Source of the DNA: Candidatus Micrarchaeota archaeon | Lineage (GTDB): Archaea; Micrarchaeota; Micrarchaeia; Anstonellales; Bilamarchaeaceae | Assembly: GCA_043821365.1 (NCBI GenBank) | Contig: JBDRCX010000002.1 | Coordinates: 96,001-160,000, forward strand | Direction of reading: 5' to 3' | DNA length: 64,000 nucleotides | Shown: piece after piece, positions 3,079 through 30,305 of the stretch | Numbering within the stretch: the first letter of the stretch is position 1 | Layout: every line of letters starts with the position of its first letter | Notes under the pieces: generated by a model | The model's input: only the letters and a program-made list of their open reading frames with translations | Told to the model about the DNA's origin: nothing | Database searches by the model: none | Program-made: the position numbers and the translations under genes

Positions 3079-4065
3079 TTACAACGTCAAATCAATCTCC
3101 TTCTTCCCATTGACTAGCCAGACACCTTTTTTATCAGTTATCTTACCAATTATCCCAGCTTCTACGCCGTGCTTTTTGGCAATATTCATAACAGTGTCTG
3201 CTCTGTCTTCTGGTAGGATGATTGTCATTCCAATGCCCATGTTGAATGTTTTGTACATATCACCGATATTCGGTACTTTCTCGTGAAGTGCTTCAAAAAT
3301 GGGTTTTGGTTTTGGCATATCGGTAAGCTTAAATCCAACATTTTGATTCAACCTTGTTAGTTTTGAAAATCCACCACCAGTTATGTGTGCAATTCCATGC
3401 ACATCACAGGCATCAATAACCTCAGAAATAGTGCTGGCATAGATCTTCGTAGGGGTAAGCATGTCCTTTCCCCATTTCTTTATATCAAGTGCTTTTCTGG
3501 CAAGTGTATAACCATTGGAATGTATGCCTGAACTTTCAAGCCCGACGATTACATCTCCTTTTGTTATTTCATTCCCAAGAATAAGTTTTTTTACTCGCCC
3601 AACAACGGTAAACGTCAAATCAAATGGTCTTTTACCCTCCTTAATAATGTCTGGTACTATTGCAGTTTCACCACCAATGATCGCACATCCACTCTCCTCT
3701 GCTCCTTTCACAAGTCCATCCATTAACTCATTTACTAGTTCGTCATCTTCTTTTGCAAGTGCGATATAATCAACACCAACAAGTGGTTCTGCACCAACAC
3801 AGAGTATGTCGTTTACTGACATGGCAACAGCATCTATACCCACAGTATCATATATTCCAAGTTCTTGTGCAACTATTATCTTTGTTCCAACGCCGTCAGT
3901 ATGTATCACCAACTGTTGGTCACCGCACTTAAAGATCCCACCATAATGTCCAAATACTGGAACTGGTTCTCCATATCCCTTTCTGAATGAAAATGATGTT
4001 TTTATTTTATCCCATATGCTTCTTTGGATTTTCTTAACATGCCCTACGTCTATCTGATATTTCAT
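3079..4065 (-). CDS. purM: Phosphoribosylformylglycinamidine cyclo-ligase (AIR synthetase)
   Basis: TDGVGTK, VAMSVND, GGETA, SSGIHSNGY, HITGGG, FNMGIGM. Confidence 0.95.
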   Translation of the reverse strand: MKYQIDVGHVKKIQRSIWDKIKTSFSFRKGYGEPVPVFGHYGGIFKCGDQQLVIHTDGVGTKIIVAQELGIYDTVGIDAVAMSVNDILCVGAEPLVGVDYIALAKEDDELVNELMDGLVKGAEESGCAIIGGETAIVPDIIKEGKRPFDLTFTVVGRVKKLILGNEITKGDVIVGLESSGIHSNGYTLARKALDIKKWGKDMLTPTKIYASTISEVIDACDVHGIAHITGGGFSKLTRLNQNVGFKLTDMPKPKPIFEALHEKVPNIGDMYKTFNMGIGMTIILPEDRADTVMNIAKKHGVEAGIIGKITDKKGVWLVNGKKEIDLTL

Positions 4066-4176
4066 AAAATCAATTACGCTCCCGAGATTTAAAATCCATT
4101 TGCTTTTTTATACAATTTGATACTAACCTCATAGACCTAGCGATAGTTTATTAACTTTACTCGTATTATTTCTCTG

Positions 4177-4650
4177 ATGCGTTTTATCGGTGGATTTTTC
4201 CAATTTGCTCGACGTGTGATTGATGCAGCAAAAAAGGGTGGCCTTAGTGCCATAGATGTCAAAAAATTAGATAATCTACTTCTAAGAACCGGCAAAAGAA
4301 ACGCAATAGTTGCAAAAGGCATTTTAACTGCACTCAGCGCAGGGGGGGCAACTGATGCAGATGTTAAGCGTTTTGGCGAGCTTTTGCAATTGGCAGAAAA
4401 TAGAATAAGGGATGATAAAAATCCTTTCACAATTCATGATAAAACAGAGCTTACCTCAATTTTCAAAAGAGCATATATATCTGCAAAAACAGCAAGATGG
4501 TTCTCAGCGCAAATAGATGAATTGCTTGCAGAAGAAATAAACGAATTTATTTCTGGTTCTCAGAGGGTGGATGTCGGGATACCATCTAAAAAAATAGTGA
4601 AGTTTGAAAAAAATGAGGAAAAAGAAACTCAAAAAAAGGTCAAGACTTAG
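4177..4650 (+). CDS. Hypothetical protein
   Basis: 157-aa ORF filling the gap and followed after 3 bp by the next + gene; no recognised motif. Confidence 0.55.
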   Translation: MRFIGGFFQFARRVIDAAKKGGLSAIDVKKLDNLLLRTGKRNAIVAKGILTALSAGGATDADVKRFGELLQLAENRIRDDKNPFTIHDKTELTSIFKRAYISAKTARWFSAQIDELLAEEINEFISGSQRVDVGIPSKKIVKFEKNEEKETQKKVKT

Positions 4651-4653
4651 TTA

Positions 4654-5169
4654 ATGGGCTGGTTTTCAATGAAGGTGAAATTAAGTCCGGATCTTTCTTA
4701 TATTATAGGCCTTTGGCGTAAATCTCGTTGTAGTGATGGAATTGGAGTTAGGGGAAGTAAAGATCTTCTTGAAATTTTTTCTAAAGAAGTACTTGATAAA
4801 CAATTAATAACTCCTGATAAACTTCTTACCGGAGAAGATAAAGTTTATTTCTATCATACTGCTTACAGAAAATTTTTCCAACAAATAGAAGCCGAACAAC
4901 TCGAGCGTTTCAAGTATCTCAATGAATATGCAGCAAATTATATTGCAGGTATGTTTGATTCTGCTGGTAGTATTGACGATAGGGGAATAGTTTCGTTGTC
5001 ATGTGCAACCAAACAGGATGAGATAATGCTACTACGACTTGGATTTGTGACTAAAAGAAGAGCTGATTATCTTATTATGGAAAGACCCATAGTATTTTTG
5101 ACTTTTATAAAAAACTATGTTAAAATTTTTAAGGACCATAAGGTTTTTGATTACATAAAAAAGAACTAG
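4654..5169 (+). CDS. Stand-alone degenerate LAGLIDADG-like protein
   Basis: Two LAGLIDADG-like helices: LSYIIGLW and YIAGMFDSAGSI. Confidence 0.6.
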   Translation: MGWFSMKVKLSPDLSYIIGLWRKSRCSDGIGVRGSKDLLEIFSKEVLDKQLITPDKLLTGEDKVYFYHTAYRKFFQQIEAEQLERFKYLNEYAANYIAGMFDSAGSIDDRGIVSLSCATKQDEIMLLRLGFVTKRRADYLIMERPIVFLTFIKNYVKIFKDHKVFDYIKKN

Positions 5170-6134
5170 ATCTCGGGCATGTAGTTTAATTTCAAATTCT
5201 TTACCAATGAGTAATACCTGTACCTTCTGATGTCATTGGGAAATTTTGATTTGAAATTGTCCATCATTTCAGTAAATTTTTCAAAGCTTTCTATCTCGAC
5301 ATCAAATTCAAAATCACTTGTAACCATGCTTTTTTCAGTGTAAATTATGTTTGGGTGGGATAATACGTTCTCTTTTATCTGTTCTGCATTGTCAAATTTT
5401 CTAAACCAAAGATCAACTTTATAATATTCTTTTCCAAGAGCTCGAAGATTTAATATTGGTCTAAAACCTATTATCACTTTTTTTTCGATTAATTTTTTTA
5501 GGTGATATCTAACAGTGACAACACTTGTTTTCAATTTTTTTGCTATTTCAACCAATGAAGCGCGGGCATTATTTGCCAAAAACACAAGCAGCCTAAGGTC
5601 AATGGGATCTAATTTTTCTGGTTCGCTTTTTATTATTGTTGTGAATGTTAATTTCTCATTTGTATTTGATGGGAGGAGATAGGGTCTAGTAAATTCAAAA
5701 TATTCTGCCATAACTGAAAGGTGGTACTCTGCAAGATACTCACCAAATTTATTTTTAAAATTAAGCCAAAATTCCTCATATTCCCAAGGTGTTTTTGCCC
5801 ATGTTGCAAGTGCAATCTGGAAAGGTCCATTTACTCGATAAAATATTGAAATATTTTTTGAATTAATCAAATAATTCTCTATTTCTCTTTCTATTTCTGG
5901 TGATGTATTCTGCAGGCTTATGTAGGTTCTATATAAGGTAAAACCTAATTTTGAGAAATTCAATACAGTATAAAATCCAGATATTATATCTTTTTGCTGC
6001 AATTGTTTGATTCTATATTTGACAGTTTCTTTGGCTACTCGAATCTTTTTTCCAAGTTCACTATAGCTTATTCTTGCATTTCTATCTAATTCAGATAAGA
6101 TTTTTCTATCAATTAAATCAAGATCAGCCATCAT
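5166..6134 (-). CDS. Tandem (double) Lrp/AsnC-family transcriptional regulator
   Basis: Two HTH starts (DLIDRKILSELDRNAR; DPIDLRLLVFLANNAR), each followed by a RAM-like domain. Confidence 0.88.
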   Translation of the reverse strand: MMADLDLIDRKILSELDRNARISYSELGKKIRVAKETVKYRIKQLQQKDIISGFYTVLNFSKLGFTLYRTYISLQNTSPEIEREIENYLINSKNISIFYRVNGPFQIALATWAKTPWEYEEFWLNFKNKFGEYLAEYHLSVMAEYFEFTRPYLLPSNTNEKLTFTTIIKSEPEKLDPIDLRLLVFLANNARASLVEIAKKLKTSVVTVRYHLKKLIEKKVIIGFRPILNLRALGKEYYKVDLWFRKFDNAEQIKENVLSHPNIIYTEKSMVTSDFEFDVEIESFEKFTEMMDNFKSKFPNDIRRYRYYSLVKNLKLNYMPEI

Positions 6135-6961
6135 TCTGCCTCTTGCTCTTTTAAATATTCATCAAACTTTCCCATTAATTCAACAAGTTCTTTTGACGGT
6201 TTTCCGAATTCTATATCGTCTATCTTGTTTATCGGAACTATCCTACTTGAAGTGCTTGTAAGGAAAGCTGATTTGTACCCTTCCAAATCCTCTAATTTTA
6301 TCATCTCTTCTTTTACAGTGTAATTATTTTTCCTTGCTATCTCTATCACATATCTTCTTGTTACTCCATTCAATACCTCTTCTTCAGGTGCAGTTACTAT
6401 CGTCTTCCCATCAATGACAAAAAAATTAGTTCTACTTCCTTCAATTACATTGTTTTGTTTATCTACAAATAGCACATCATAACATCCTTGATTTTTAGCT
6501 TCAGAATAATATACATAACTCGGGAGCATATTCAATGTTTTTGCCTGAGGCATCCAACGTTCATATTTTTTTGTTAATGTTTTTACACCATCACGATATA
6601 ATTTTCTATCAATGAAATGCGGATTTAATGGCAAAATATAAAGGGTTGTATCTTTCTTTTGTTTAGCTCCCATCAACACCATTTTCAGATTAATATTAAT
6701 CTTCTGATCAGATAACTTTTGGATCAATTGGTTTATACTTTTACTAATATCAGTTTTGGAAAAACCATGTTCCATCCTTACCAAACTAGCAGAAGAAAAC
6801 AATCTTGTTATGTGCTCATCCAAAAAGCATGGTTTACTATTCTTTATTTTTATGTTTTCATATACTCCAAAACCATAGTTATGTTCAATATTGAAAAGAG
6901 AAATTACTGCTTCTGAGACCGGGCAAATCTTGTTATTTTTAATAAAATATTTCAATTCCAT
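6131..6961 (-). CDS. PLP-dependent class IV aminotransferase (D-amino-acid / branched-chain / ADC-lyase family)
   Basis: YGFGVYE, catalytic K in AKTLN, EGSRTNFF, LNGVTR, TSTSSRIVPI; 4-bp overlap with the Lrp gene. Confidence 0.88.
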   Translation of the reverse strand: MELKYFIKNNKICPVSEAVISLFNIEHNYGFGVYENIKIKNSKPCFLDEHITRLFSSASLVRMEHGFSKTDISKSINQLIQKLSDQKININLKMVLMGAKQKKDTTLYILPLNPHFIDRKLYRDGVKTLTKKYERWMPQAKTLNMLPSYVYYSEAKNQGCYDVLFVDKQNNVIEGSRTNFFVIDGKTIVTAPEEEVLNGVTRRYVIEIARKNNYTVKEEMIKLEDLEGYKSAFLTSTSSRIVPINKIDDIEFGKPSKELVELMGKFDEYLKEQEAE

Positions 6962-7080
6962 ACTTGCTATTTTTTATAAAATTATATAAAAAACTATCTT
7001 TTTTCGTAAAAATCTACTAATTAATTTAATATATATGAAATGCACAGATAAATTCACAAATTAACACAATTGGTGGGATA

Positions 7081-8148
7081 ATGAAGCTTCTATATTTTCA
7101 TGCAAAAGAGTTGCGAATTGAAGCAGGCATTTCAGGTAACCCAAGCAAACAAAGACAAACTGAACGGACTTTGCGCGAGCGTCTTGGCAATGCACTTCCA
7201 ATATTAGATACTCACAATAATCTAACTGAATCAAAAAACGCTCTTCTTGTTTTTGTCTGTGCAGAAAAAGAAGATGGTGTTCTTGATCTTACTAATATTC
7301 GTGATGATATACTAAAATCAAGAGCAATGCTCGGTGTAGATGACATTGTGCTTGGTGCATTTGGTCATTTAAGTGAAGAAACCGCTGATCCATTGTTAGC
7401 AAGAAGAATAATAGATGATCTTCTGAGTATGGTTCAATCCAGTTATCCGTCTACTAAATCATTCCCTTTTGGTTGGGACAAATCACTCGATATAAAGGTT
7501 CCATTACATCATTTTAATGCATCATTCAAGTCCTATGGAACTGGATTAGACTTTTGGAGTTCAGTTGCAACTCATTTTGATGAGTATATGCAAGAAACTG
7601 GTCACTATCATGCACAAGCAACATTGCTTAACAGGTTTTTTGAGTCAATGCCAAGTTCTCAAATACTTGATATCTGTTGTGGTGGAGGATTTGCCATACA
7701 TCATCTGACAAAAACCATTCATCCGGAGAATCAAGTTTTTGGTTTAGATAGTTCTGAAAAGATGCTTGAAATAGCAAGAAAAAGATCTAGTGGTAGTTTT
7801 ATTTGTGGAAAGGCAGAGTATTTAGATCTATTTTTCAATGGACATAAATTTGACGTTGTGCTTGCTATCAATGCAGTTGCATATGTTGATATGGTGTTGG
7901 TCCTATCAAGACTTCGTAAAATAATGAAGCCGGGATCGGGGTTTATTGTGATGGAAGAAGAGCCATTTATCTCTGGGTTTTCGATCCCATCAGACACAAA
8001 AATACCTGAAGAACTAAAATTAGCCCATCTAAGTATCAAGGAAATAGAAAAGTCTGTTATTCAGAGTGGTTTCAGGTTAATTGCCAAAACAGATAGTCCA
8101 ATAGATCAAAGGCACAGATTAGTTGGTTTAGCATTCCAATTAGTTTAG
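7081..8148 (+). CDS. Fusion: archaeal ThrRS-editing (DTD-like) domain + class I SAM-dependent methyltransferase
   Basis: N-terminal MKLLYFHA...LLVFVCAEKED...AFGHLS...PFGWDK parallels the editing domain of the adjacent ThrRS; C-terminal ILDICCGGG, GLDSSEKML, FDVV are MTase motifs. Confidence 0.8.
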   Translation: MKLLYFHAKELRIEAGISGNPSKQRQTERTLRERLGNALPILDTHNNLTESKNALLVFVCAEKEDGVLDLTNIRDDILKSRAMLGVDDIVLGAFGHLSEETADPLLARRIIDDLLSMVQSSYPSTKSFPFGWDKSLDIKVPLHHFNASFKSYGTGLDFWSSVATHFDEYMQETGHYHAQATLLNRFFESMPSSQILDICCGGGFAIHHLTKTIHPENQVFGLDSSEKMLEIARKRSSGSFICGKAEYLDLFFNGHKFDVVLAINAVAYVDMVLVLSRLRKIMKPGSGFIVMEEEPFISGFSIPSDTKIPEELKLAHLSIKEIEKSVIQSGFRLIAKTDSPIDQRHRLVGLAFQLV

Positions 8149-8176
8149 TGACAAAGTTCTGAAAAAACTGTCAATA

Positions 8177-8232
8177 TTTATAAACTTGCAAAACTATTTC
8201 TTTATGCTTTTTCTATAGAAAAGCTCAGGTGA
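8177..8232 (+). promoter_or_regulatory. Putative TATA box and Shine-Dalgarno of thrS
   Basis: TTTATAAA at 8177-8184 preceded by an A-rich tract; GGTGA at 8228-8232, 4 nt before ATG. Confidence 0.55.
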
Positions 8233-8236
8233 AATC

Positions 8237-10651
8237 ATGAGAATATTAACAATTCATGCAGATTACATAGAAGTAGAACCAATGAAGAAGGCAATAAAGG
8301 ATGCAGAAGAACTGAAGCATAAAGGAAAAGAAAGATTCGATGAAGTTCTTGTTGTATTTACTGCCGTAGAAAAAGATGATGATGAAAACAGTGGAGAAAG
8401 GCTTGCTAATGAGACAAAGTCAGTTGCTGATCAAGTCAAAACAAAAAAATTATTACTATATCCTCTTGTTCACCTAACATCAAAACCATCCTCTCCATCA
8501 CTTGCAAAAAAAGTTATGGCAAAAGCAGAATCAATCCTTAAAGAACAAGGATTCGAAGTTTCCCACTCTCCTTTTGGATGGTACAAAGGTTATACACTCA
8601 AGTGCAAAGGTCACCCACTTTCTGAACTATCAAGAGAGTTTTATGCTAGTGAAACAGCAGAAATATCTAAGGAATTAGTATCTGATAATAGCACATACAA
8701 AAAATTGATGGACTTTCTTAACCAAAATAAGGCCACCTACAAGCTTATTGATCATCCACCCGAGGGCAGAACAGCAATAGTAAGTAAGATGAGAGGCAAC
8801 CTGCTTTCTCAGGCAGCGCATTGTATAATAGTAATGATAGATGTTGGAAAGAACAAGAAGAAATATATTCTAGCTGTTGTTCCTGGGGATTCCAGAGTGG
8901 ATATGGACGCAGTCAAATTATTATTTAACGGTTCCTATGCCTCTTTTGCTGATAAGGAGACTGCTGAGAGATTATCTGGAAGTATCTCAGGAACAATCCT
9001 ACCGTTTACTTTTAACCAAGAACTAGAACTAGTGGTGGATCCGAGATTGTTGGAACATGATGAACTATTCTTTAATGCAGCCCGTTTGGATAAGTCTTTG
9101 ATACTAAAGTCAAGCGACTACAAACGCATTGCTAAGCCTACGATAAAGTCAATATCTGTGATTTCTGAGGAAGGAGAAAAAGATGTTAGCAATGCCTTTA
9201 AAGCCGAGAAGAAGCTTGTGTCGATTTTTCATATTCTTGACAGCGAGGGAGAAGTACACAAGATTGAATATGACAAGGAAAAGAAGAAATTTGCTGGTTT
9301 CGACTTCTCAAACCATGAGAACCTGAAGAAATTTGCATCATATGAGATGGCCAAGGATAGGGCAGTGAATGAAGAACCACCACACGTGGCTCTGATGAAA
9401 AAGCACGAACTGGTGGATTATGAGCCTGGTTCTGATCCTGGAAATCTTAGATATTATCCAAAAGGACGTTTCATGAAAGGTCTTATTGAGAGATATGTTA
9501 CCCAGGTTGTGAAGCAGAATGGTGGAATGGAAATCGAATCACCAATCATGTATGATTTTGAACATCCTTCACTGAAAAGCTATCTTAACAGATTCCCTGC
9601 AAGACAGTATACAATTGAAACGCCCAACAAAAAGGTGTTCTTAAGGTTTGCTGCATGCTTCGGTGGCTTCCTTATGGCACATGATACTAACATTTCCTAT
9701 AAGCAGCTTCCTGTGTGGCTCTACGAGCTTACTAGATATAGCTTTAGGGTGGAGCAAAGAGGAGAGCTGACTGGTTTGAGGCGGTTGAGGTCATTTACTA
9801 TGCCTGATTGCCATGCATTCTGCAAAGACGAGGGACAAGCAAAAGCTGAAATAATAAGAAGGTTTGAAATGAGTAGGGAAATGCAGAACAAGATGGGTAT
9901 AAATTCCAAAAACGATCTTGAATTCGCAATAAGGGTAACACGACAGTTTTATGAGAAAAATAAGGAATTTCTTGTCGATCTGGTGAAGCGGTGGGGCAAA
10001 CCAACACTTCTTGAAATGTGGGACGAACAGTTTTTCTACTTCGTATTTAAGTATGAATTTAATTTTGTTGACAATCTTGGCAAGTGTTCTGCACTTACCA
10101 CTGATCAAATTGATATCGAGAACGCAAAAAGATACGGAATTGAGTACGTTGACGAGAATGGAGAAAAGAAGAACCCATTAATATTACATCTTTCTCCATC
10201 TGGTGCAGTTGAAAGAATAATATATGCACTGCTTGAAAAAGCAGCATTTGATATGAAAAAAGGTAACGTCCCCAGCCTTCCATTGTGGCTATCGCCAACG
10301 CAGATCCGCATAATCCCAGTTTCAAAAGAGAAACATCTTAATTTCAGCGAAAAACTAGCAGAAAGAATTTCAAATATGGATATCCGAGTTGATGTTGATG
10401 ATCGAGATGAAAGCGTTGGTAAAAAGATACGAAATGCTGGCCAGGAGTGGACTCCTTATACCATTGTAGTTGGTGACAAGGAAATTGAGAGCCAAGATAA
10501 ATTTATGGTAAGGGACAGGGAAAATAACCAGGAAAGAGAAATGCACATTGAAGAGTTGGTAAAAACAATAAAAGAAAAAACAGAAGGAATGCCTTTTGAT
10601 ACTCTTCCACTTCCGAGGAACTTAAGCAAGCGAATTATTTTTGTTGGTTGA
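8237..10651 (+). CDS. thrS: Threonyl-tRNA synthetase, archaeal type, with inserted YbaK/YeaK(ProXp-y)-like domain
   Basis: Archaeal editing domain (PFGWYK, CKGHPLSELSR); core motifs YYPKG, RFAACFG, YELTRYSFRVEQRGE, LRRLRSFTMPDCH, GAVER; anticodon domain GKKIR; 804 aa because of the insertion at about 8690-9160. Confidence 0.95.
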   Translation: MRILTIHADYIEVEPMKKAIKDAEELKHKGKERFDEVLVVFTAVEKDDDENSGERLANETKSVADQVKTKKLLLYPLVHLTSKPSSPSLAKKVMAKAESILKEQGFEVSHSPFGWYKGYTLKCKGHPLSELSREFYASETAEISKELVSDNSTYKKLMDFLNQNKATYKLIDHPPEGRTAIVSKMRGNLLSQAAHCIIVMIDVGKNKKKYILAVVPGDSRVDMDAVKLLFNGSYASFADKETAERLSGSISGTILPFTFNQELELVVDPRLLEHDELFFNAARLDKSLILKSSDYKRIAKPTIKSISVISEEGEKDVSNAFKAEKKLVSIFHILDSEGEVHKIEYDKEKKKFAGFDFSNHENLKKFASYEMAKDRAVNEEPPHVALMKKHELVDYEPGSDPGNLRYYPKGRFMKGLIERYVTQVVKQNGGMEIESPIMYDFEHPSLKSYLNRFPARQYTIETPNKKVFLRFAACFGGFLMAHDTNISYKQLPVWLYELTRYSFRVEQRGELTGLRRLRSFTMPDCHAFCKDEGQAKAEIIRRFEMSREMQNKMGINSKNDLEFAIRVTRQFYEKNKEFLVDLVKRWGKPTLLEMWDEQFFYFVFKYEFNFVDNLGKCSALTTDQIDIENAKRYGIEYVDENGEKKNPLILHLSPSGAVERIIYALLEKAAFDMKKGNVPSLPLWLSPTQIRIIPVSKEKHLNFSEKLAERISNMDIRVDVDDRDESVGKKIRNAGQEWTPYTIVVGDKEIESQDKFMVRDRENNQEREMHIEELVKTIKEKTEGMPFDTLPLPRNLSKRIIFVG

Positions 10652-10788
10652 TATTGCATCTTTCCTTGCCGAGCAGCAGTTATCATAATTTTTTCTTTTC
10701 TATTCGTAAGGTTCTAATTAGTCGTGTCTTTCGGTAAATAAAAATGGTTCTGATTTTCCGAGCATAAAACCTCTCTTTAAAATAATTC

Positions 10789-12618
10789 ATGATACAATTC
10801 TGCCCTATGGCGGGTAGGCTAGTCAGTGCTTTTGATGCAAGACCAAATTCAAAACAACGAAATATGCAATTTGATGGTGCACCACTAGTTGAAAGAAATC
10901 TTACTTTGGTTAATAGATTTGGTGAACAAAGGTCATTACGTGGTCTTGTTCCCTTGGGTATTGATAAAGTCGAAGAGGTTCAATTTATTCTTTCACAAAA
11001 CGGTGGTACCTGCAATATTGAAAAAGGAACCGGTGATCTATCAGAGTTTACGTGGATAAAAAGCATTGCATTAAGTGATGGGTTTACTGTTGCTGATTGG
11101 CTTCAAATAAGAAACAGAAGTATGGAATTTGAGATTGGCAGATTGAAAGACGGCCGTTCTTTTTGGGAGAATGCCAACACACTAAAAGTCAAAGAAGCAG
11201 GTGCAACTGTTATTACAGAAGATTATGGTATGACTGCAGAATTGCCTGATACTAGTGACATACTAAATGGAAAGAAAGCTTGCGGAGGTTGCGGAGGGGA
11301 CATGTCAAAAGATTCCCTTGAAGCTGCCAGAATTGCCATAAGATATGGTTGGGATAGGGATGAATTTTCTGTCAATCCTGATACAGGCGAAGTAAAAGAG
11401 CAAGCAAAATATGCTGATGGTCTTGCAATCTCTATTGATGTAACTCAAATAATTCCAGGCCCTAATAATCCTATTGTTCAAGATGTATATACAAAGTCTA
11501 ATGAGACTGGCGGGTTTGGAAATGGGTTATTAGTAAAATTACTTCTTAGTAGCCAATCTTCTGAAGAAAGCTTCAGAAACCAACCTGTTATATTAACCTC
11601 TCCAATACCAGTCACCCAGACTGATGTTCCAAAACCAGAGAAACAAATGTGTGAACAATACACACCAGAAGAGTCTATGATCTTACGTTTATTGATGAAT
11701 CCAACAGAAAGAAAATTATGGGGGCGTCTTTATGGTCTTCCTGATGATGAAGCTTCCCCTATTGTTCTTGAAAAACTCGTTCTACAATCCCTTCAAACAA
11801 TAAGAGCACCAACTCCACTATCAGTTCAACATCAAAAACAATTACCAACAAAGTCCCAAGATGAAGACAAACCAGTACAACAACCAAAACTCCCAAGATT
11901 AGTTTTCTCATCAATTAAAATAGATACAGAATCCAAACCACAAGAAGTTTCATCAAAACAAAAACATCCGGTGCAAGTCTCAACTCAACAACATTTTCAA
12001 AAACCAAAATCACCAGGAATAAAACAAAAACCAGTTAGAACTAAAACACCCAAGAAAAAACCAGTTTCTGAATTGGAATCAACAAGAACAAACAAAAAGA
12101 GGCATGAAATACGTGATGCCGAACCTACTGGAAAAATACCAAAATCAAGAAAGGCTCCAAAACCAGTTAGTCTGGATGAAGTAAAGGACGAAACTAAAAA
12201 ACCAAAAAGAAGAAAATCTACGAAGAAAACATCAGACGAGCTGGAATCTACTAAAAAACTATCAGATGAAAAGAAAAAAGCTAAAAAAAGAAAACACCCA
12301 GAACCAGAAATCGAAGGAATTCAAAAGAAAGAAAAAAAGGCAAGAAGAATCAAGAAACAGTTGGAATCACCAGAGCCTCTAAAGAAACAAAAAACCAAAA
12401 GAATAAATGATCAAATGGAACAAGATGAAAAAACCAGAAAAAAATCAAAGATCCATCATCCAGCAGCATCAAAAAGAAAATCGAATAATCCTAAAAACCA
12501 TACTTTAGCAAAGAAAAAAAGACGTAAAAAACGAGTTAGTCGCTACTATCTATTAGATATGCTTGGAGTTATAAATAAAAGAAAAAAATCTAATGGAAAA
12601 GTAGTGGTAAGAAATTAA
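10789..12618 (+). CDS. Hypothetical protein: globular N-terminal half, Q/P-rich linker, long Lys/Arg-rich low-complexity tail
   Basis: 609-aa ORF with a CGGCGG motif; last about 220 aa dominated by K/R/E/S/P. Confidence 0.7.
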   Translation: MIQFCPMAGRLVSAFDARPNSKQRNMQFDGAPLVERNLTLVNRFGEQRSLRGLVPLGIDKVEEVQFILSQNGGTCNIEKGTGDLSEFTWIKSIALSDGFTVADWLQIRNRSMEFEIGRLKDGRSFWENANTLKVKEAGATVITEDYGMTAELPDTSDILNGKKACGGCGGDMSKDSLEAARIAIRYGWDRDEFSVNPDTGEVKEQAKYADGLAISIDVTQIIPGPNNPIVQDVYTKSNETGGFGNGLLVKLLLSSQSSEESFRNQPVILTSPIPVTQTDVPKPEKQMCEQYTPEESMILRLLMNPTERKLWGRLYGLPDDEASPIVLEKLVLQSLQTIRAPTPLSVQHQKQLPTKSQDEDKPVQQPKLPRLVFSSIKIDTESKPQEVSSKQKHPVQVSTQQHFQKPKSPGIKQKPVRTKTPKKKPVSELESTRTNKKRHEIRDAEPTGKIPKSRKAPKPVSLDEVKDETKKPKRRKSTKKTSDELESTKKLSDEKKKAKKRKHPEPEIEGIQKKEKKARRIKKQLESPEPLKKQKTKRINDQMEQDEKTRKKSKIHHPAASKRKSNNPKNHTLAKKKRRKKRVSRYYLLDMLGVINKRKKSNGKVVVRN

Positions 12619-13945
12619 GTGCAAAGAAAAACAAAGCACCATAGCTTACTAATTTCACTATTGTTTTGTTTTCCACATTAATGTCAATTATCCTGAAACC
12701 ATCAAACATTGGCACTGGTAGAATATTTACAGTACCAACAATGAAGTTAAGTGCAAGGCTCAATCCAACAAGGAGGTAAATGAACTGCAGTATTCCATTA
12801 TTATAATGGGCAGCAAGAGAGCTTTTGTAAATGGGATAATATTGTATTCCCACCTTACCTGTTTCATTAGCCATCATAGTTACGTCTCCCATATTCGTTT
12901 GGAATATAACTTCACTATTCGGAGTCAGATTCATGGGAGTATGATTATAGACGTTTAACAGTTCCCCATCTATACCATATATGACTGTTCCTGGTTCCAT
13001 TCCAGATACAACCAACAATCCTTCTTCTCTGAATGATCCTGTTGCAAAGAAAAATCCCATAAATAAAAAGAATAATACTACAGAAGTTATCAGATTTGCA
13101 GTTGGTCCAGCAACTAATACTCTAGTTTGCTTTTTTGCATCTACTTTCACTAGTTTCTTTTCATCAGGTTCTACAAAAGCACCTATCGGTATTATACCAA
13201 ATAAGACTATTCCAGATGATAAAACTGGGACTTTTGCAATTCTAGCTAAAACTGCATGTGCAACTTCATGCACAACCATGACTATTGCAAGAGCCAATAC
13301 TCCCTCTAAAAATGGTAAATTTATGCCAGGAAGTAAGAAAGTTCCACCAGCAGCAGTTTGGGATATGGTGTCTGTTCCAAAGAAAATGGTGGTTATCAAT
13401 GCCTTCAAAACAACAATACCATAAAAAACCAAACCAAAAACTATGAACAAGAACATTCCACCAACAAACAATATCCCACTTATGAGTAGCAATCCAAGAC
13501 TAGGGTCGTCTGTTAGTCCTGTTACTGTTTTCTCAGTCGCACCCACTTTTACTACATTTAATATGAACGACAAAGCAACAGGAGCAACAAATAACGATAG
13601 GAAAAATAATACAACTAAACCAGGAATTAAAGTTTTCCATGTTGTTGTTTTCTTCATTAGTAAAAGACTCAAAAGCCCATATGAAATAGAACTTCCAACA
13701 TCAGCTAGATAATTGAAAATTTTCTCGTGGTGGGCTAGTTTATCTATCCATACAATCCCTTTCTTACTTTTCAAAAGAACAAGACCAAGCTCACTTGAAA
13801 GCTTATATTTTTTGATAAGTATTTGGCTTACAGCCAACATTTCTATTACCACTAATACAAATTTGACTAGACCTGAAACCTCCAATTGCAGTATTGCATA
13901 AAACAATCCCAATGCTATGGCTATCAATAACAGAATAACAATCAT
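12590..13945 (-). CDS. Site-2 protease (M50 family) membrane metalloprotease
   Basis: HEVAH, GAFVEP, AGPTAN, NILPVPMFDG; multiple TM segments. Confidence 0.93.
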   Translation of the reverse strand: MIVILLLIAIALGLFYAILQLEVSGLVKFVLVVIEMLAVSQILIKKYKLSSELGLVLLKSKKGIVWIDKLAHHEKIFNYLADVGSSISYGLLSLLLMKKTTTWKTLIPGLVVLFFLSLFVAPVALSFILNVVKVGATEKTVTGLTDDPSLGLLLISGILFVGGMFLFIVFGLVFYGIVVLKALITTIFFGTDTISQTAAGGTFLLPGINLPFLEGVLALAIVMVVHEVAHAVLARIAKVPVLSSGIVLFGIIPIGAFVEPDEKKLVKVDAKKQTRVLVAGPTANLITSVVLFFLFMGFFFATGSFREEGLLVVSGMEPGTVIYGIDGELLNVYNHTPMNLTPNSEVIFQTNMGDVTMMANETGKVGIQYYPIYKSSLAAHYNNGILQFIYLLVGLSLALNFIVGTVNILPVPMFDGFRIIDINVENKTIVKLVSYGALFFFALNFLPLLFH

Positions 13946-13997
13946 AAATATGCTACGAAGTTAGGTCTTTTTATAGTTATGGAAGAATAGAATTATC

Positions 13998-14474
13998 ATG
14001 GCAGAGCTCTATTGTGACATTTGTGGGAATACTCCAGTCCGTGCTCAGATCTTGGTTGAAGGAGCCAAGATGTTAGCCTGTGGCAGGTGTATGAAAAGTG
14101 GGAAGGTAATAATGAGGCTTGATGAGGATGATGGTCTTCCAATTGCACGTCCAGCGCCAACCAATTTAGGTTCTAATGAGGAAATAACCGAGGGGTACGG
14201 TAGAATCATAATCAATGCAAGGGAAAAATCAGGACTACCAATAGCAGTTGTTGCAGAGAGAATAAAGGAAAAAGAAAGCTATCTTCATGCAATAGAACAC
14301 GAACGACTTTCACCAACCATGGCGGTTGCTAAAAAATTAGAAAAAGAACTTGGCATTAAGTTAATCGAAAAAGTTAGCAATACAATGGCACCGAGTGTTT
14401 CACCGTCCTCCAAAAACTTCCAACCTCTTACTCTGGGTGATATGGTGGATGCCAAAAAGAAAAAGGAGAAATAA
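13998..14474 (+). CDS. mbf1: Archaeal multiprotein bridging factor aMBF1
   Basis: N-terminal Zn ribbon (CDICG..CGRC) + HTH (AREKSGL...LEKELGIKL) + LTLGD tail. Confidence 0.9.
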   Translation: MAELYCDICGNTPVRAQILVEGAKMLACGRCMKSGKVIMRLDEDDGLPIARPAPTNLGSNEEITEGYGRIIINAREKSGLPIAVVAERIKEKESYLHAIEHERLSPTMAVAKKLEKELGIKLIEKVSNTMAPSVSPSSKNFQPLTLGDMVDAKKKKEK

Positions 14475-14567
14475 TGCTTTTAAGACATATTGGGGGGTTC
14501 ATCATGGGTAGTGGGTATATGATGGGGATAGAAAACCCCAAGAAGAAAAACGTAGAGGGTTTTCATC

Positions 14568-15605
14568 ATGGGTGTTGATTTAGGCGATCTTAGTGTAAAA
14601 CATCCTATTTCATTAGATTCACTTTCTGGCAAAGCAATTGCCATCGATGCATACAATATGCTTTATCAGTTTTTGGCATCAATACGTCAAGAAGATGGAA
14701 TGCCTTTAATGGACTTCAAAGGAAATGTAACTGCCCATTTGTCAGGTTTATTCTATCGTACTTGCAAACTTATGGAGAATGGAATCAAACCAATCTATGT
14801 TTTTGATGGCAAGCCAAATGTGATGAAAGGAAAAGTCCAAGCACAAAGATCAGAAATAAAGAAAAAGGCAGAGGAGAAATGGAAAGAAGCACTTGAACAT
14901 GGTAGGTATCAGGATGCAAAAAAATATGCTCAGGCAACTTCAAAATTAACTAAAGAAATGGTTGCTGAAAGCAAAATTCTTCTACAGGGAATGGGAGTCC
15001 CATTTGTCCAGGCATCTTCTGATGGTGAAGCACAAGCATCAATGATGGTTGAAAAAGGAATTGCATATGCAACTGCTTCTCAAGATTATGATGCCTTATT
15101 ATTTGGCTCAAATAGGTTAGTCAGGAATTTGTCAATAACTGGAAGACGAAAAGTCCCACGTCAGGATCGTTATATTCTTGTAGAGCCTGAAATGATTGAA
15201 CTTAAGGAAACACTTGCTTCTTTGGGCATCGGTAGAGACGGGCTGATATTTATCGGCATTCTACTTGGTACTGATTTCAATGATGGTGTGAAACGAGTTG
15301 GGCCTAAAACTGCACTAAAAATAGTAAAAGAAAATAAAACACTTGATTCTATTGTTGATTATGTAAAACAAAAATACGACTACCAATTTGAAGTTGATGC
15401 TGAAGATGTTTTCAATATCTTTCTTGATCCACCGTATGTTCAAGCGGATAATCTAAAATGGAATAAACTAAACACAGATGCTCTTACCAAGCTTCTTGTT
15501 GATCAACATGATTTCTCAAAAGATAGAGTTGGAAATACTCTAACCAATCTACAAAAAATTATGGACGAAAGATCTGCTCAGAGTAAATTAGACGAATGGT
15601 TCTAG
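14568..15605 (+). CDS. fen: Flap endonuclease 1
   Basis: IDAYN, YQFL, VFDG, DGEAQAS, SQDYD, GTDFN, C-terminal PIP box QSKLDEWF. Confidence 0.97.
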   Translation: MGVDLGDLSVKHPISLDSLSGKAIAIDAYNMLYQFLASIRQEDGMPLMDFKGNVTAHLSGLFYRTCKLMENGIKPIYVFDGKPNVMKGKVQAQRSEIKKKAEEKWKEALEHGRYQDAKKYAQATSKLTKEMVAESKILLQGMGVPFVQASSDGEAQASMMVEKGIAYATASQDYDALLFGSNRLVRNLSITGRRKVPRQDRYILVEPEMIELKETLASLGIGRDGLIFIGILLGTDFNDGVKRVGPKTALKIVKENKTLDSIVDYVKQKYDYQFEVDAEDVFNIFLDPPYVQADNLKWNKLNTDALTKLLVDQHDFSKDRVGNTLTNLQKIMDERSAQSKLDEWF

Positions 15606-29884: not shown

Positions 29885-30021
29885 TTTTGATCGACGTTTC
29901 GATCAAAACAGTCGTTCCGGCGGTGTTCACAGCGAGCACTCCGAGTGCGAGCTCAGTGAACAAAAACGCCTTGTCCATGAACTTCGTTCATGACAGTCGA
30001 AATTTTTCAGAAAAAATTTCG
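29885..30021. repeat. Cluster of four tandem short palindromes downstream of tRNA-Asp
   Basis: IRs at 29885-29908, 29924-29962, 29972-29995 and 29998-30021. Confidence 0.7.
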
Positions 30022-30133
30022 CCTTGGCCGGGATTCGAACCCGGGTCGCAAGAGTGACAGTCTTGTATGCTAACCATTGAACGCTAAATGCGTTCAAATA
30101 TTGAACGCATTCAATGCTCTACACTACCAAGGC
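30020..30133 (-). tRNA. tRNA-Asp(GTC) with 42-nt non-canonical D-loop intron (30076-30117); no encoded CCA
   Basis: Acceptor GCCTTGG/CCAAGGC, anticodon arm CAAGA-CTGTCAC-TCTTG, T-loop GTTCGAATC; removing the intron restores D-loop AGAGGTTA. Confidence 0.9.
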
Positions 30134-30305
30134 ATGACAAATCGGAAATTTGTCTATTTAGAAATTTCCTAACTTCTAATGCATAAAAGTAACAGGAATC
30201 TGCTGCCTTAATCTTAAAAAGCATTCGTTTAGTACCAAGTTACTGTTTCCAATGACTATCTTAGTTCTATGAAAGTATAAATACAACTTCGTCTATTAAT
30301 TATAT

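What the first reader, a model, noticed from the sequence alone, without database searches (positions are those of the whole stretch)
8237..10651. ThrRS with two different editing folds: YeaK/ProXp-y-like domain inserted in cis
Seen: about 155 aa (about 8690-9160) sit between an intact archaeal editing domain and the catalytic core. They read TYKKLMDFL...DHPPEG...RG...ILAVVPGD...SGTILPFTF...VDPRLL...FNAARLDKSLILKSSDYKRIAKP, matching my recollection of E. coli YeaK along its whole length. Known: YbaK-superfamily INS domains are normally associated with ProRS, and free ProXp-y deacylates Ser- and Thr-tRNAs. I know of no described ThrRS carrying both an archaeal editing domain and an INS-family domain. 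Inference: a bacterial trans-editing factor was captured as a second cis-editing site.
Basis: partly seen in the sequence, partly recalled or inferred. Interest (0 to 1): 0.85.

Follow-up and report, generated by a model that had tools for sequence, protein, structure and literature searches.

The report
ThrRS carrying an extra YeaK-type editing domain
The only threonyl-tRNA synthetase of this tiny archaeon carries a second proofreading-type domain (YeaK/ProXp-ST1 family) between its normal archaeal editing domain and its catalytic core. The module is shared with many ultra-small bacteria and archaea, was recombined into this gene recently, and no paper I could search describes it.

Summary
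ORF 8237-10651 (804 aa) reads archaeal editing domain (aa 1-134), YbaK-fold domain (aa 150-311), then archaeal ThrRS core and anticodon-binding domain. The insert is 35% identical to E. coli YeaK over its full length and folds as a YbaK/ProX domain between two disordered linkers.

- **Not a local capture.** The insert belongs to one well-supported clade of ThrRS-linked YeaK-like domains. I found at least 53 protein clusters from CPR bacteria (N-terminal, beside an intact N2 editing site) and 30 from DPANN archaea, on several ThrRS chassis.
- **The gene is a recent mosaic.** The editing domain is native (70-85% identical to those of congeners). The YeaK domain plus core are foreign: third-codon-position GC content (GC3) is 0.36-0.38, against a genome mean of 0.244. 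None of 39 congeners has the insert.
- **Function is inferred.** The bacterial N2 site decays wherever the archaeal editing domain is present, but the YeaK-like domain never decays. That argues for a non-redundant second check.
- **The catalytic Lys is missing.** The "strictly conserved" superfamily Lys is His195 here. A whole 11-member archaeal subclade lacks it yet keeps every other invariant residue.

Verdict: a new variant of a known kind, of real interest to aaRS specialists. The scan had noted YeaK-like fusions to AspRS on other DNA, but not to ThrRS.

The parts
8237..10651 (+). thrS, 804 aa. It is the only ThrRS found in the 1.2-Mb genome, which is 87% complete.
   Evidence: The Zn ligands and motif 2/3 residues (E. 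coli C334, R363, E365, D383, H385, K465, Q484, H511, R520) are all conserved.
8237..8638 (+). Archaeal DTD-like editing domain (tRNA-Thr_ED), aa 1-134. This is the native part of the mosaic.
   Evidence: Pfam 1.2e-43. It is 70-85% identical to the editing domains of canonical congener-type ThrRS and 38-63% identical to those of other YeaK-bearing ThrRS. It nests in the canonical clade (96*). GC3 is 0.21, typical of the genome.
8639..8683 (+). Linker 1, aa 135-149, which coincides with the recombination/composition breakpoint.
   Evidence: pLDDT is below 50 for aa 138-149. GC3 steps from about 0.2 to about 0.4 at about codon 140.
8684..9169 (+). YeaK/ProXp-ST1-like INS-superfamily domain, aa 150-311.
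   Evidence: It is a member of the ThrRS-linked clade (100/97*). Family invariants H173, R186, G252, P256, D268, F279, N280, D285 and S287 are kept. The clade signature is C196, S249, T253, L255 and A282.
8819..8821 (+). Codon CAT = His195, at the position of the INS-superfamily Lys (E. coli YeaK K52).
   Evidence: Alignments to 3op6, 2dxa, 1wdv and YeaK. Among ThrRS-fused domains the position is 66 K, 9 H and 8 N; the other sampled YeaK-like domains, including the four non-ThrRS fusions, are K except one E and one H in a 396-aa protein. Three runs cover the codon with no difference.
9170..9190 (+). Linker 2, aa 312-318.
   Evidence: pLDDT is below 50 for aa 313-316.
9191..10651 (+). Archaeal-type ThrRS catalytic core and anticodon-binding domain, aa 319-804. 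This is the foreign part of the mosaic.
   Evidence: It is 61-63% identical to the cores of other ED+YeaK+archaeal-core ThrRS and 50-54% identical to those of congeners. It falls in a clade outside all canonical congener-type cores (100*, 98*). GC3 is 0.38, above the 99th percentile of the genome's long ORFs.
5166..8148 (.). Three genes lie between the conserved upstream pair (4177-5169) and thrS: a double-HTH Lrp/AsnC-like regulator (5166-6134, -), a class IV aminotransferase (6131-6961, -) and an ED-like+SAM-methyltransferase (7081-8148, +).
   Evidence: Pfam. In four of the six congener loci checked the upstream pair abuts thrS directly, with no trio between. The trio is present in the same order next to a YeaK-bearing thrS on L035.

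Best explanation
This is the genome's working threonyl-tRNA synthetase, built as a recent mosaic. It joins a native archaeal (DTD-like) editing domain to a foreign segment that encodes a YeaK/ProXp-ST1-type domain plus an archaeal catalytic core and anticodon-binding domain.

The YeaK-like domain is a member of a ThrRS-dedicated clade of the INS superfamily. That clade most likely arose on CPR-bacterial ThrRS, N-terminal to the N2 editing domain. It has since been passed, with or without a core, into DPANN archaeal thrS genes.

Proposed working (inferred). The anticodon-binding domain holds tRNA-Thr. The acylated CCA end leaves the synthetic site and can sample two hydrolytic pockets tethered by flexible linkers. 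The DTD-like domain removes Ser. The YeaK-like pocket performs a second, non-redundant check on another mis-acylated species, most plausibly a Thr/Ser-like analogue or another small residue on tRNA-Thr. Its retuned pocket spares Thr.

In this subclade the Lys that normally steers the C75-A76 phosphate is His. The domain remains under constraint, so I take it to be still functional, possibly with altered affinity or specificity.
For: Shown:
- Domain identity and fold.
- A full-length model with pLDDT 91.5, in which the insert is a discrete domain between disordered linkers.
- An intact ThrRS active site, and a single ThrRS in the genome.
- In the tree one clade (100/97*) holds all 83 sampled ThrRS-fused domains plus 19 other rows (13 free-standing, 4 other fusions, 2 intermediate-length). 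Its basal grade is CPR, and the archaeal forms are nested inside it.
- Mosaic origin, supported by per-domain identities, conflicting editing-domain and core trees, a GC3 step at codon ~140 to values seen in under 0.5% of the genome's long ORFs, conserved upstream synteny with congeners, and absence of the insert in 39 congeners.

Support for non-redundancy. In archaeal chimeras that carry both the archaeal editing domain and a bacterial N2 domain, all N2 catalytic residues (E. coli H73, H77, D180, C182, H186) are lost. In CPR ThrRS without the archaeal domain, N2 is intact. The YeaK-like domain keeps all family invariants in 77 of 77 fused domains checked (all but the six CPR Asn-variant rows), whichever partner is present.

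Support for constraint after K->H. The 11-row His/Asn subclade (100/90*) keeps every other invariant. Its mean pairwise identity is 0.68, the same as Lys-type archaeal domains.

From the literature. ProXp-ST1 deacylates Ser- and Thr-tRNAs. FthB, a relative, acts on fluorothreonyl-tRNA-Thr (PMC11295145). The superfamily Lys positions A76, while chemistry uses the A76 2'-OH (PMC10164551).
Against: There is no biochemical evidence for any member of this clade.

The Lys is described as strictly conserved, and its Ala mutants are dramatically impaired in every INS member tested, including the cis-acting ProRS INS domain (PMC10164551). A His variant could therefore be weak or dead.

The substrate is a guess. 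ThrRS is mainly known to misactivate Ser, which the archaeal editing domain already handles.

Conservation after K->H is also compatible with a non-catalytic binding role.

The donor direction (CPR to DPANN) rests on a 171-column tree rooted on one E. coli sequence, with bootstrap not fully settled.
Confidence: 0.58

Rival explanations
1. Redundant back-up. The YeaK-like domain hydrolyses the same Ser-tRNA-Thr as the archaeal editing domain. It simply raises editing capacity in organisms exposed to unbalanced Ser/Thr pools.
For: ProXp-ST1 is reported to deacylate Ser-tRNA-Thr among other substrates (PMC11295145). CPR and DPANN organisms have reduced biosynthesis and depend on external amino acids (general knowledge).
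Against: When two Ser-tRNA-Thr editors meet in one chain (archaeal domain + N2), one decays. The YeaK-like domain never decays beside either of them. The fused clade has fixed pocket changes relative to free YeaK: A53C, C105S, A109T and P111L in E. coli numbering. 38 of 39 congeners manage with the archaeal domain alone or with a dead N2.
Confidence: 0.2
2. Pseudo-editing module. In the His195 subclade the domain no longer hydrolyses. It is kept as an acceptor-end binding, spacing or protective element, for example to hold or shield Thr-tRNA-Thr or to position the archaeal editing domain.
For: The A76-positioning Lys is lost in the whole 11-row archaeal subclade, and independently (Asn) in a 7-row CPR clade. 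Lys->Ala abolishes activity in all tested INS members (PMC10164551). Loss is rare outside ThrRS fusions: one Glu among 23 free-standing forms, and none among the four non-ThrRS fusions.
Against: All other pocket and family invariants, including the G-x-x-x-P loop, stay invariant in 11/11 members. Divergence is no faster than in Lys-type domains, which is hard to explain for a mere spacer. His can still hydrogen-bond a phosphate. Most fused domains (66 of 83) keep Lys.
Confidence: 0.2
3. Artefact. The three-part gene is a chimeric assembly or a mis-joined frame.
For: None was found. The only prompt is that the window comes from a metagenome-type assembly and that composition changes inside the gene.
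Against: Independent runs from two studies bridge both junctions with zero differences. The ORF is uninterrupted. The same architecture occurs in about 30 archaeal clusters from NCBI, JGI, ENA and Logan. A syntenic relative (L035) also has a YeaK-bearing thrS at the same locus.
Confidence: 0.01

Closest known systems
E. coli YeaK = ProXp-ST1 (free-standing Ser-/Thr-tRNA deacylase, INS superfamily)
   Same: It is 35% identical over the whole domain. It has the same fold and the same family invariants (H, R, G-x-x-x-P, D, FN, LD-S).
   Different: Here the domain is embedded in cis in a ThrRS. The Lys (K52) is His. The clade-specific pocket changes are A53C, C105S, A109T, P111L and G139A. No activity has been tested.
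INS editing domain of bacterial ProRS, and ProXp-ala fused to ProRS in protists
   Same: A YbaK-fold hydrolytic domain sits within or fused to a class II synthetase, and the tRNA is held by the same enzyme.
   Different: The host enzyme is ThrRS, not ProRS, and the subfamily is ProXp-ST1-like. The review PMC11295145 lists only ProRS-linked fusions. ThrRS already has its own, unrelated editing domain.
Canonical archaeal ThrRS (PRK03991) with N-terminal DTD-like editing domain
   Same: The editing domain, core and anticodon-binding domain all match (798 bits). The editing domain is 85% identical to that of a canonical relative (P0028).
   Different: About 175 aa are inserted at the editing-domain/core junction, and the core has a different ancestry from the editing domain.
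CPR-bacterial ThrRS with N-terminal YeaK-like domain (Peregrinibacteria, Gottesmanbacteria, Amesbacteria records; annotated only as threonine--tRNA ligase)
   Same: It carries the same YeaK-like clade, at 52-63% identity.
   Different: The core is bacterial with an intact N2 editing site. The YeaK-like domain is at the extreme N-terminus, and there is no archaeal editing domain.
FthB (fluorothreonyl-tRNA deacylase, ProXp-ST1 relative)
   Same: It is a precedent that this family can tell a Thr analogue from Thr on tRNA-Thr (PMC11295145).
   Different: It is free-standing and lies in a biosynthetic cluster. It was not compared by sequence here.
AspRS fused to YeaK-like domains
   Same: It is a YeaK-type module fused to a class II synthetase in ultra-small bacteria and archaea.
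   Different: The host enzyme is different and the fusion is C-terminal. No AspRS appeared among the 74 long proteins closest to this insert.

Membership tests
YbaK/INS superfamily (Pfam PF04073 tRNA_edit) | Profile match above the curated cut-off | tested here: met
   60.2 bits in the whole protein and 63.8 bits on the excised piece, against a cut-off of 25.5.
YbaK/INS superfamily (Pfam PF04073 tRNA_edit) | YbaK/ProX fold | tested here: met
   The model has pLDDT 95.5. All 37 Foldseek PDB hits with E<=0.001 are YbaK-fold entries: INS-superfamily chains, scaffold designs built on 2cx5, and two multidomain proteins. The top hits are 1wdv, 2cx5, 1dbu, 1vki and 2dxa, at TM 0.78-0.91 by target length.
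YbaK/INS superfamily (Pfam PF04073 tRNA_edit) | Strictly conserved Lys that positions A76 (K45 ProXp-ala, K279 ProRS, K52 YeaK) | tested here: not met
   The position is His195, confirmed by four independent alignments. The codon is covered by three runs.
YbaK/INS superfamily (Pfam PF04073 tRNA_edit) | G-x-x-x-P substrate loop | tested here: met
   G252-T-I-L-P256. The G and P are invariant in all rows.
ProXp-ST1 / YeaK family | Closer to YeaK than to other INS families | tested here: met
   113 bits against E. coli YeaK, versus 20-27 bits against YbaK, ProX or APE2540 chains. The YbaK NCBIfam models score below their cut-offs. The genome's own free-standing INS protein is APE2540-type, a different family. 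No tree with all INS families was built.
ProXp-ST1 / YeaK family | [quoted passage not shown] | not testable with these tools
   This needs deacylation assays.
ProXp-ST1 / YeaK family | Single-domain, free-standing protein | tested here: not met
   The domain is embedded at aa 150-311 of an 804-aa ThrRS.
Archaeal threonine--tRNA ligase (NCBIfam PRK03991) | Equivalog model above cut-off | tested here: met
   798 bits against 484, split into two stretches by the insert.
Archaeal threonine--tRNA ligase (NCBIfam PRK03991) | Zn ligands and class II motif residues of ThrRS | tested here: met
   The equivalents of E. coli C334, H385, H511, R363, E365, D383, K465, Q484 and R520 are all present.
Archaeal threonine--tRNA ligase (NCBIfam PRK03991) | N-terminal DTD-like editing domain | tested here: met
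   PF08915 scores 148.9 bits over the full profile. It is 85% identical to a canonical relative.

The most novel reading that the evidence does not exclude
The ThrRS-linked YeaK-like clade may be a third, so far unrecognised kind of ThrRS editing domain. Its substrate would differ from Ser-tRNA-Thr, for example a Thr/Ser analogue. Its mechanism would tolerate loss of the 'strictly conserved' INS Lys (His or Asn variants). The module is traded between CPR bacteria and DPANN archaea at a thrS locus that behaves as a recombination hot spot: at least four ThrRS architectures occur in one genus, and two different architectures sit at the same locus in genomes whose flanking genes are 76-90% identical. 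The exchange could be driven by environmental amino-acid analogues or ThrRS-targeting inhibitors.
Probability: 0.3. Interest if true: 0.8.

Novelty: new variant of a known kind. Interest (0 to 1): 0.66.

Why it matters
ThrRS editing is a textbook case with two known solutions: bacterial/eukaryotic N2 and the archaeal DTD-like domain. Here a third, unrelated hydrolytic fold is wired into ThrRS, and nature has combined it with either of the other two.

- **A natural redundancy experiment.** N2 dies next to the archaeal domain, while the YeaK-like domain never dies. This gives a direct handle on what ProXp-ST1-type enzymes are really for.
- **A test of a supposed invariant.** It offers natural His and Asn replacements of a residue regarded as invariant in the INS superfamily.
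- **Module exchange in an essential gene.** It documents inter-domain (CPR-DPANN) and intragenic exchange of modules in an essential translation gene.

All of this is testable with standard deacylation assays.

Tried and rejected
- **Genome-contig scan.** A scan with the single insert found only three distant free-standing bacterial YeaK-like genes, so it gave no taxonomy for the fused forms.
- **Cluster members.** The listing of cluster members gave no names or accessions for ten fused or canonical ThrRS.
- **Expression.** No RNA holder was listed for the stretch, so expression could not be assessed.
- **tRNAs.** Aragorn finds few tRNAs in this genome, and many predictions carry long introns. 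Only one credible tRNA-Thr(CGU) was seen, so tRNA identity elements were not analysed.
- **Foldseek on the full-length model.** It returns only ThrRS catalytic-domain structures.
- **Context of a free-standing relative.** The context of P0123 (56% identical) is uninformative.
- **Literature.** Searches covered ThrRS+YbaK+Woesearchaeota, ProXp-ST1/YeaK, INS superfamily+ThrRS+fused, aaRS+DPANN+CPR+editing domain, and the Pfam accessions. None found a description of a ThrRS with an INS-family domain. Subscription journals are not covered.
- **Woesearchaeota placement, rejected.** Congeners' ThrRS are identical to NCBI proteins named Candidatus Micrarchaeota archaeon, so the organism is not Woesearchaeota.
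A direct local capture of a bacterial trans-editing gene does not fit.
Full report
**What is there**

The window carries one uninterrupted ORF at 8237..10651 (+) of 804 aa.
- Pfam finds four domains in order: tRNA-Thr_ED (aa 1-134, 1.2e-43), tRNA_edit/PF04073 (aa 199-297, 2.7e-16), tRNA-synt_2b (aa 458-668) and HGTP_anticodon (aa 689-781).
- The archaeal ThrRS equivalog PRK03991 scores 798 bits against a cut-off of 484. It aligns to aa 1-134 and 309-802, so about 175 residues are inserted exactly at the editing-domain/core junction.
- The ThrRS active site is intact: the Zn ligands and the motif 2/3 residues are all present.
- This is the only ThrRS found in the 1.2-Mb genome, which is 87% complete.

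**Identity of the insert**

- The excised piece is 35% identical to E. coli K-12 YeaK (b1787, annotated as a mischarged aminoacyl-tRNA deacylase) over 159 residues, pairwise E 6e-37.
- It is only marginally similar to solved YbaK/ProX chains: 20-27 bits.
- An AlphaFold2 model of the insert alone has pLDDT 95.5. All 37 significant Foldseek hits in the PDB are YbaK-fold entries: INS-superfamily chains, scaffold designs built on 2cx5, and two multidomain proteins, with top-hit TM scores of 0.78-0.91 by target length.
- In the full-length model (pLDDT 91.5) the insert is a discrete domain (aa 150-311) between two disordered linkers (aa 138-149 and 313-316).
- The genome also has one free-standing INS-superfamily gene. 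It is of the APE2540/ProX type and keeps the Lys.

**Not an artefact**

Logan contigs from runs of two different studies (groundwater, biofilm) bridge the editing-domain/insert junction and the insert/core junction without any difference. The architecture also recurs in many independent assemblies.

**Distribution**

Searching the N-terminal 330 aa, and then the insert alone, against long proteins found at least 30 archaeal clusters with tRNA-Thr_ED + tRNA_edit + ThrRS. The named ones are Candidatus Woesearchaeota; one equals the same-family genome G245. It also found at least 53 bacterial clusters with tRNA_edit + tRNA_SAD + ThrRS, named Peregrinibacteria, Gottesmanbacteria and Amesbacteria. 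All are annotated only as threonine--tRNA ligase. The archaeal proteins fall into three chassis:
- **Class A:** editing domain + YeaK-like + archaeal core. This is the class of the window's gene, with at least 12 clusters.
- **Class B:** editing domain + YeaK-like + N2 + bacterial-type core, about 900 aa.
- **Class C:** editing domain + YeaK-like + bacterial core without N2.

In the bacterial forms the YeaK-like domain is at the extreme N-terminus.

**One clade, probably of CPR origin**

A careful ML tree of 112 YeaK-like domains puts all ThrRS-fused domains in one clade (100/97*). A few free-standing and otherwise-fused ones sit with them. The earliest branches of the clade are CPR ThrRS, and the archaeal domains form three or four groups nested inside. 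The root is a single E. coli sequence and the alignment has 171 columns, so the direction is tentative. Relative to free-standing YeaK-like proteins the clade has fixed pocket-region changes:
- E. coli A53 becomes Cys196 (100% of the clade).
- C105 becomes Ser249 (95% of the 40 rows; a minority of the wider set keep Cys).
- A109 becomes Thr253.
- P111 becomes Leu255 (100%).
- G139 becomes Ala282.

**The gene in the window is a recent mosaic**

- *Organism.* The organism's GTDB congeners have ThrRS identical to NCBI proteins named Candidatus Micrarchaeota archaeon.
- *Congeners lack the insert.* None of the 39 congeners searched has it. Most have a 620-630-aa canonical ThrRS.
- *Per-domain identities.* The editing domain of the window's protein is 70-85% identical to those canonical proteins and only 38-63% identical to other YeaK-bearing ThrRS. 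Its core is 50-54% identical to congeners but 61-63% identical to class A proteins.
- *Conflicting trees.* The editing domain nests inside the canonical clade (96*). The core lies in a class A clade outside all canonical cores (100*, 98*).
- *Composition.* Third-position GC is 0.21 in the editing-domain part. It is 0.36 in the YeaK part and 0.38 in the core. The genome's long ORFs average 0.244 (sd 0.035), and fewer than 0.5% reach 0.356. The step lies at about codon 140.
- *Synteny.* The two genes upstream of thrS in congeners are present in the window at 4177-5169, so the locus is ancestral. Three extra genes now lie between them and thrS: an Lrp-like regulator, a class IV aminotransferase and an ED-like+methyltransferase.
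- *A syntenic relative.* A Logan contig (L035) has the same eleven-gene order, including the trio. Its flanking genes are 76-90% identical to the window's. Yet its thrS is class B: editing domain 40%, YeaK 61% and core 29% identical. The gene downstream of thrS is unrelated.

The thrS locus is therefore a replacement hot spot.

**A natural redundancy experiment**

- In CPR ThrRS the N2 editing residues (E. coli H73, H77, D180, C182, H186) are intact beside the YeaK-like domain.
- In every archaeal chimera that has both the archaeal editing domain and an N2 domain, all these residues are lost. This holds with or without the YeaK-like domain, and includes five ThrRS of the window's own genus.
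- The YeaK-like domain keeps all family invariants in all 77 fused domains checked, every one except the six CPR Asn-variant rows, whichever partner it has.

I read this as follows. The archaeal domain and N2 are redundant with each other, since both remove Ser. The YeaK-like domain does something else.

**The Lys problem**

[quoted passage not shown] Here it is His195 (codon 8819-8821).
- Among fused domains the position is 66 Lys, 9 His and 8 Asn. Free-standing ones are Lys in 22 of 23.
- The His/Asn archaeal forms are one well-supported subclade of 11 rows (100/90*) that spans chassis A, B and C.
- A separate 7-row CPR clade is all Asn.
- In the His subclade every other invariant is kept in 11/11 members. 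Mean pairwise identity is 0.68, the same as in Lys-type archaeal domains.

So the change was followed by continued constraint rather than decay. Whether catalysis survives is open. Chemistry in this family is attributed to the A76 2'-OH and backbone groups, not to the Lys.

**Comparison with what is known**

A 2024 review lists the INS superfamily as single-domain proteins apart from the ProRS INS domain, ProXp-ala-ProRS fusions and a plant C-terminal extension. It describes ThrRS with only N2 or DTD-like editing domains (PMC11295145). Five literature searches found no description of a ThrRS with an INS-family domain. Earlier notes of this scan report YeaK-like domains fused to AspRS in CPR and other small-genome organisms. 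I did not test those, and none appeared among the closest long relatives of this insert.

**Verdict**

The evolutionary reading (local capture of a bacterial trans-editing factor) is replaced by acquisition of a pre-formed, ThrRS-dedicated module by recombination. The functional reading (a second cis-editing site) is plausible but unproven, and the His195 replacement complicates it. This is a new variant of a known kind. It is of clear interest for aaRS quality control and for CPR-DPANN gene exchange.

Noticed in passing
window 7081-8148 (+): A divergent archaeal ThrRS editing-like domain (PF08915, 1.7e-14; the FGWYK motif reads FGWDK) is fused to a class I SAM methyltransferase. The family is rare: about 10 clusters, one named Micrarchaeota. 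It sits next to a double-HTH Lrp-like regulator in all three loci seen, and directly upstream of a YeaK-bearing thrS in the window and in L035.
   Followed up: partly
window 3079-15605 versus L035:838-13913: The locus shows a gradient of divergence centred on thrS. Flanking genes are 76-90% identical at the protein level. The Lrp-like gene is 67% identical, and the aminotransferase and the ED-methyltransferase are each about 54%. The thrS parts are 29-61% identical. The downstream Lys-rich 609-aa ORF (10789-12618, no Pfam hit) is unrelated to its 665-aa counterpart except for the last 27 aa.
   Followed up: partly
L023, L024, L025 (genomes G164, G169, G288; also G262, G406; same genus as the window): These ThrRS are about 742 aa: archaeal editing domain + bacterial N2 domain with all catalytic residues lost + bacterial-type core. 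They are chimeras across the archaeal/bacterial ThrRS divide and lack a YeaK-like domain.
   Followed up: partly
L012:1498-3825 (-) (genome G282, same genus): This ThrRS is 776 aa. It has the archaeal editing domain, then a ~150-aa N2/AlaX-like insert (weak tRNA_SAD hit; ExxxH and CxxxH motifs partly kept), then an archaeal core. It is another two-editing-fold ThrRS at the same junction.
   Followed up: partly
L027:1456-1962 (-) (genome G115, same class): A free-standing 169-aa YeaK-like gene is 62% identical to the insert and falls inside the ThrRS-linked clade, as sister to a 15-row CPR group. That genome's ThrRS has a bacterial-type core and no match to the archaeal editing domain with this query.
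   Followed up: partly
proteins P0328, P0331, P0329, P0330: Close YeaK-like domains (49-54% identical) are fused to PLP-dependent decarboxylases, to a cytochrome P450, and to a class II aaRS-related protein of Kitasatospora.
   Followed up: no
G000:C2:12177-12385 (outside the window): Aragorn predicts a tRNA-Thr(CGU) with a long intron and an A73 discriminator, rather than the U73 described as conserved in archaeal tRNA-Thr. It is a single prediction and was not verified.
   Followed up: no
window about 30019-30134 (-): Aragorn, run with introns allowed, calls a tRNA-SeC(TCA) here. This is probably a mis-called intron-bearing tRNA. It was not checked.
   Followed up: no
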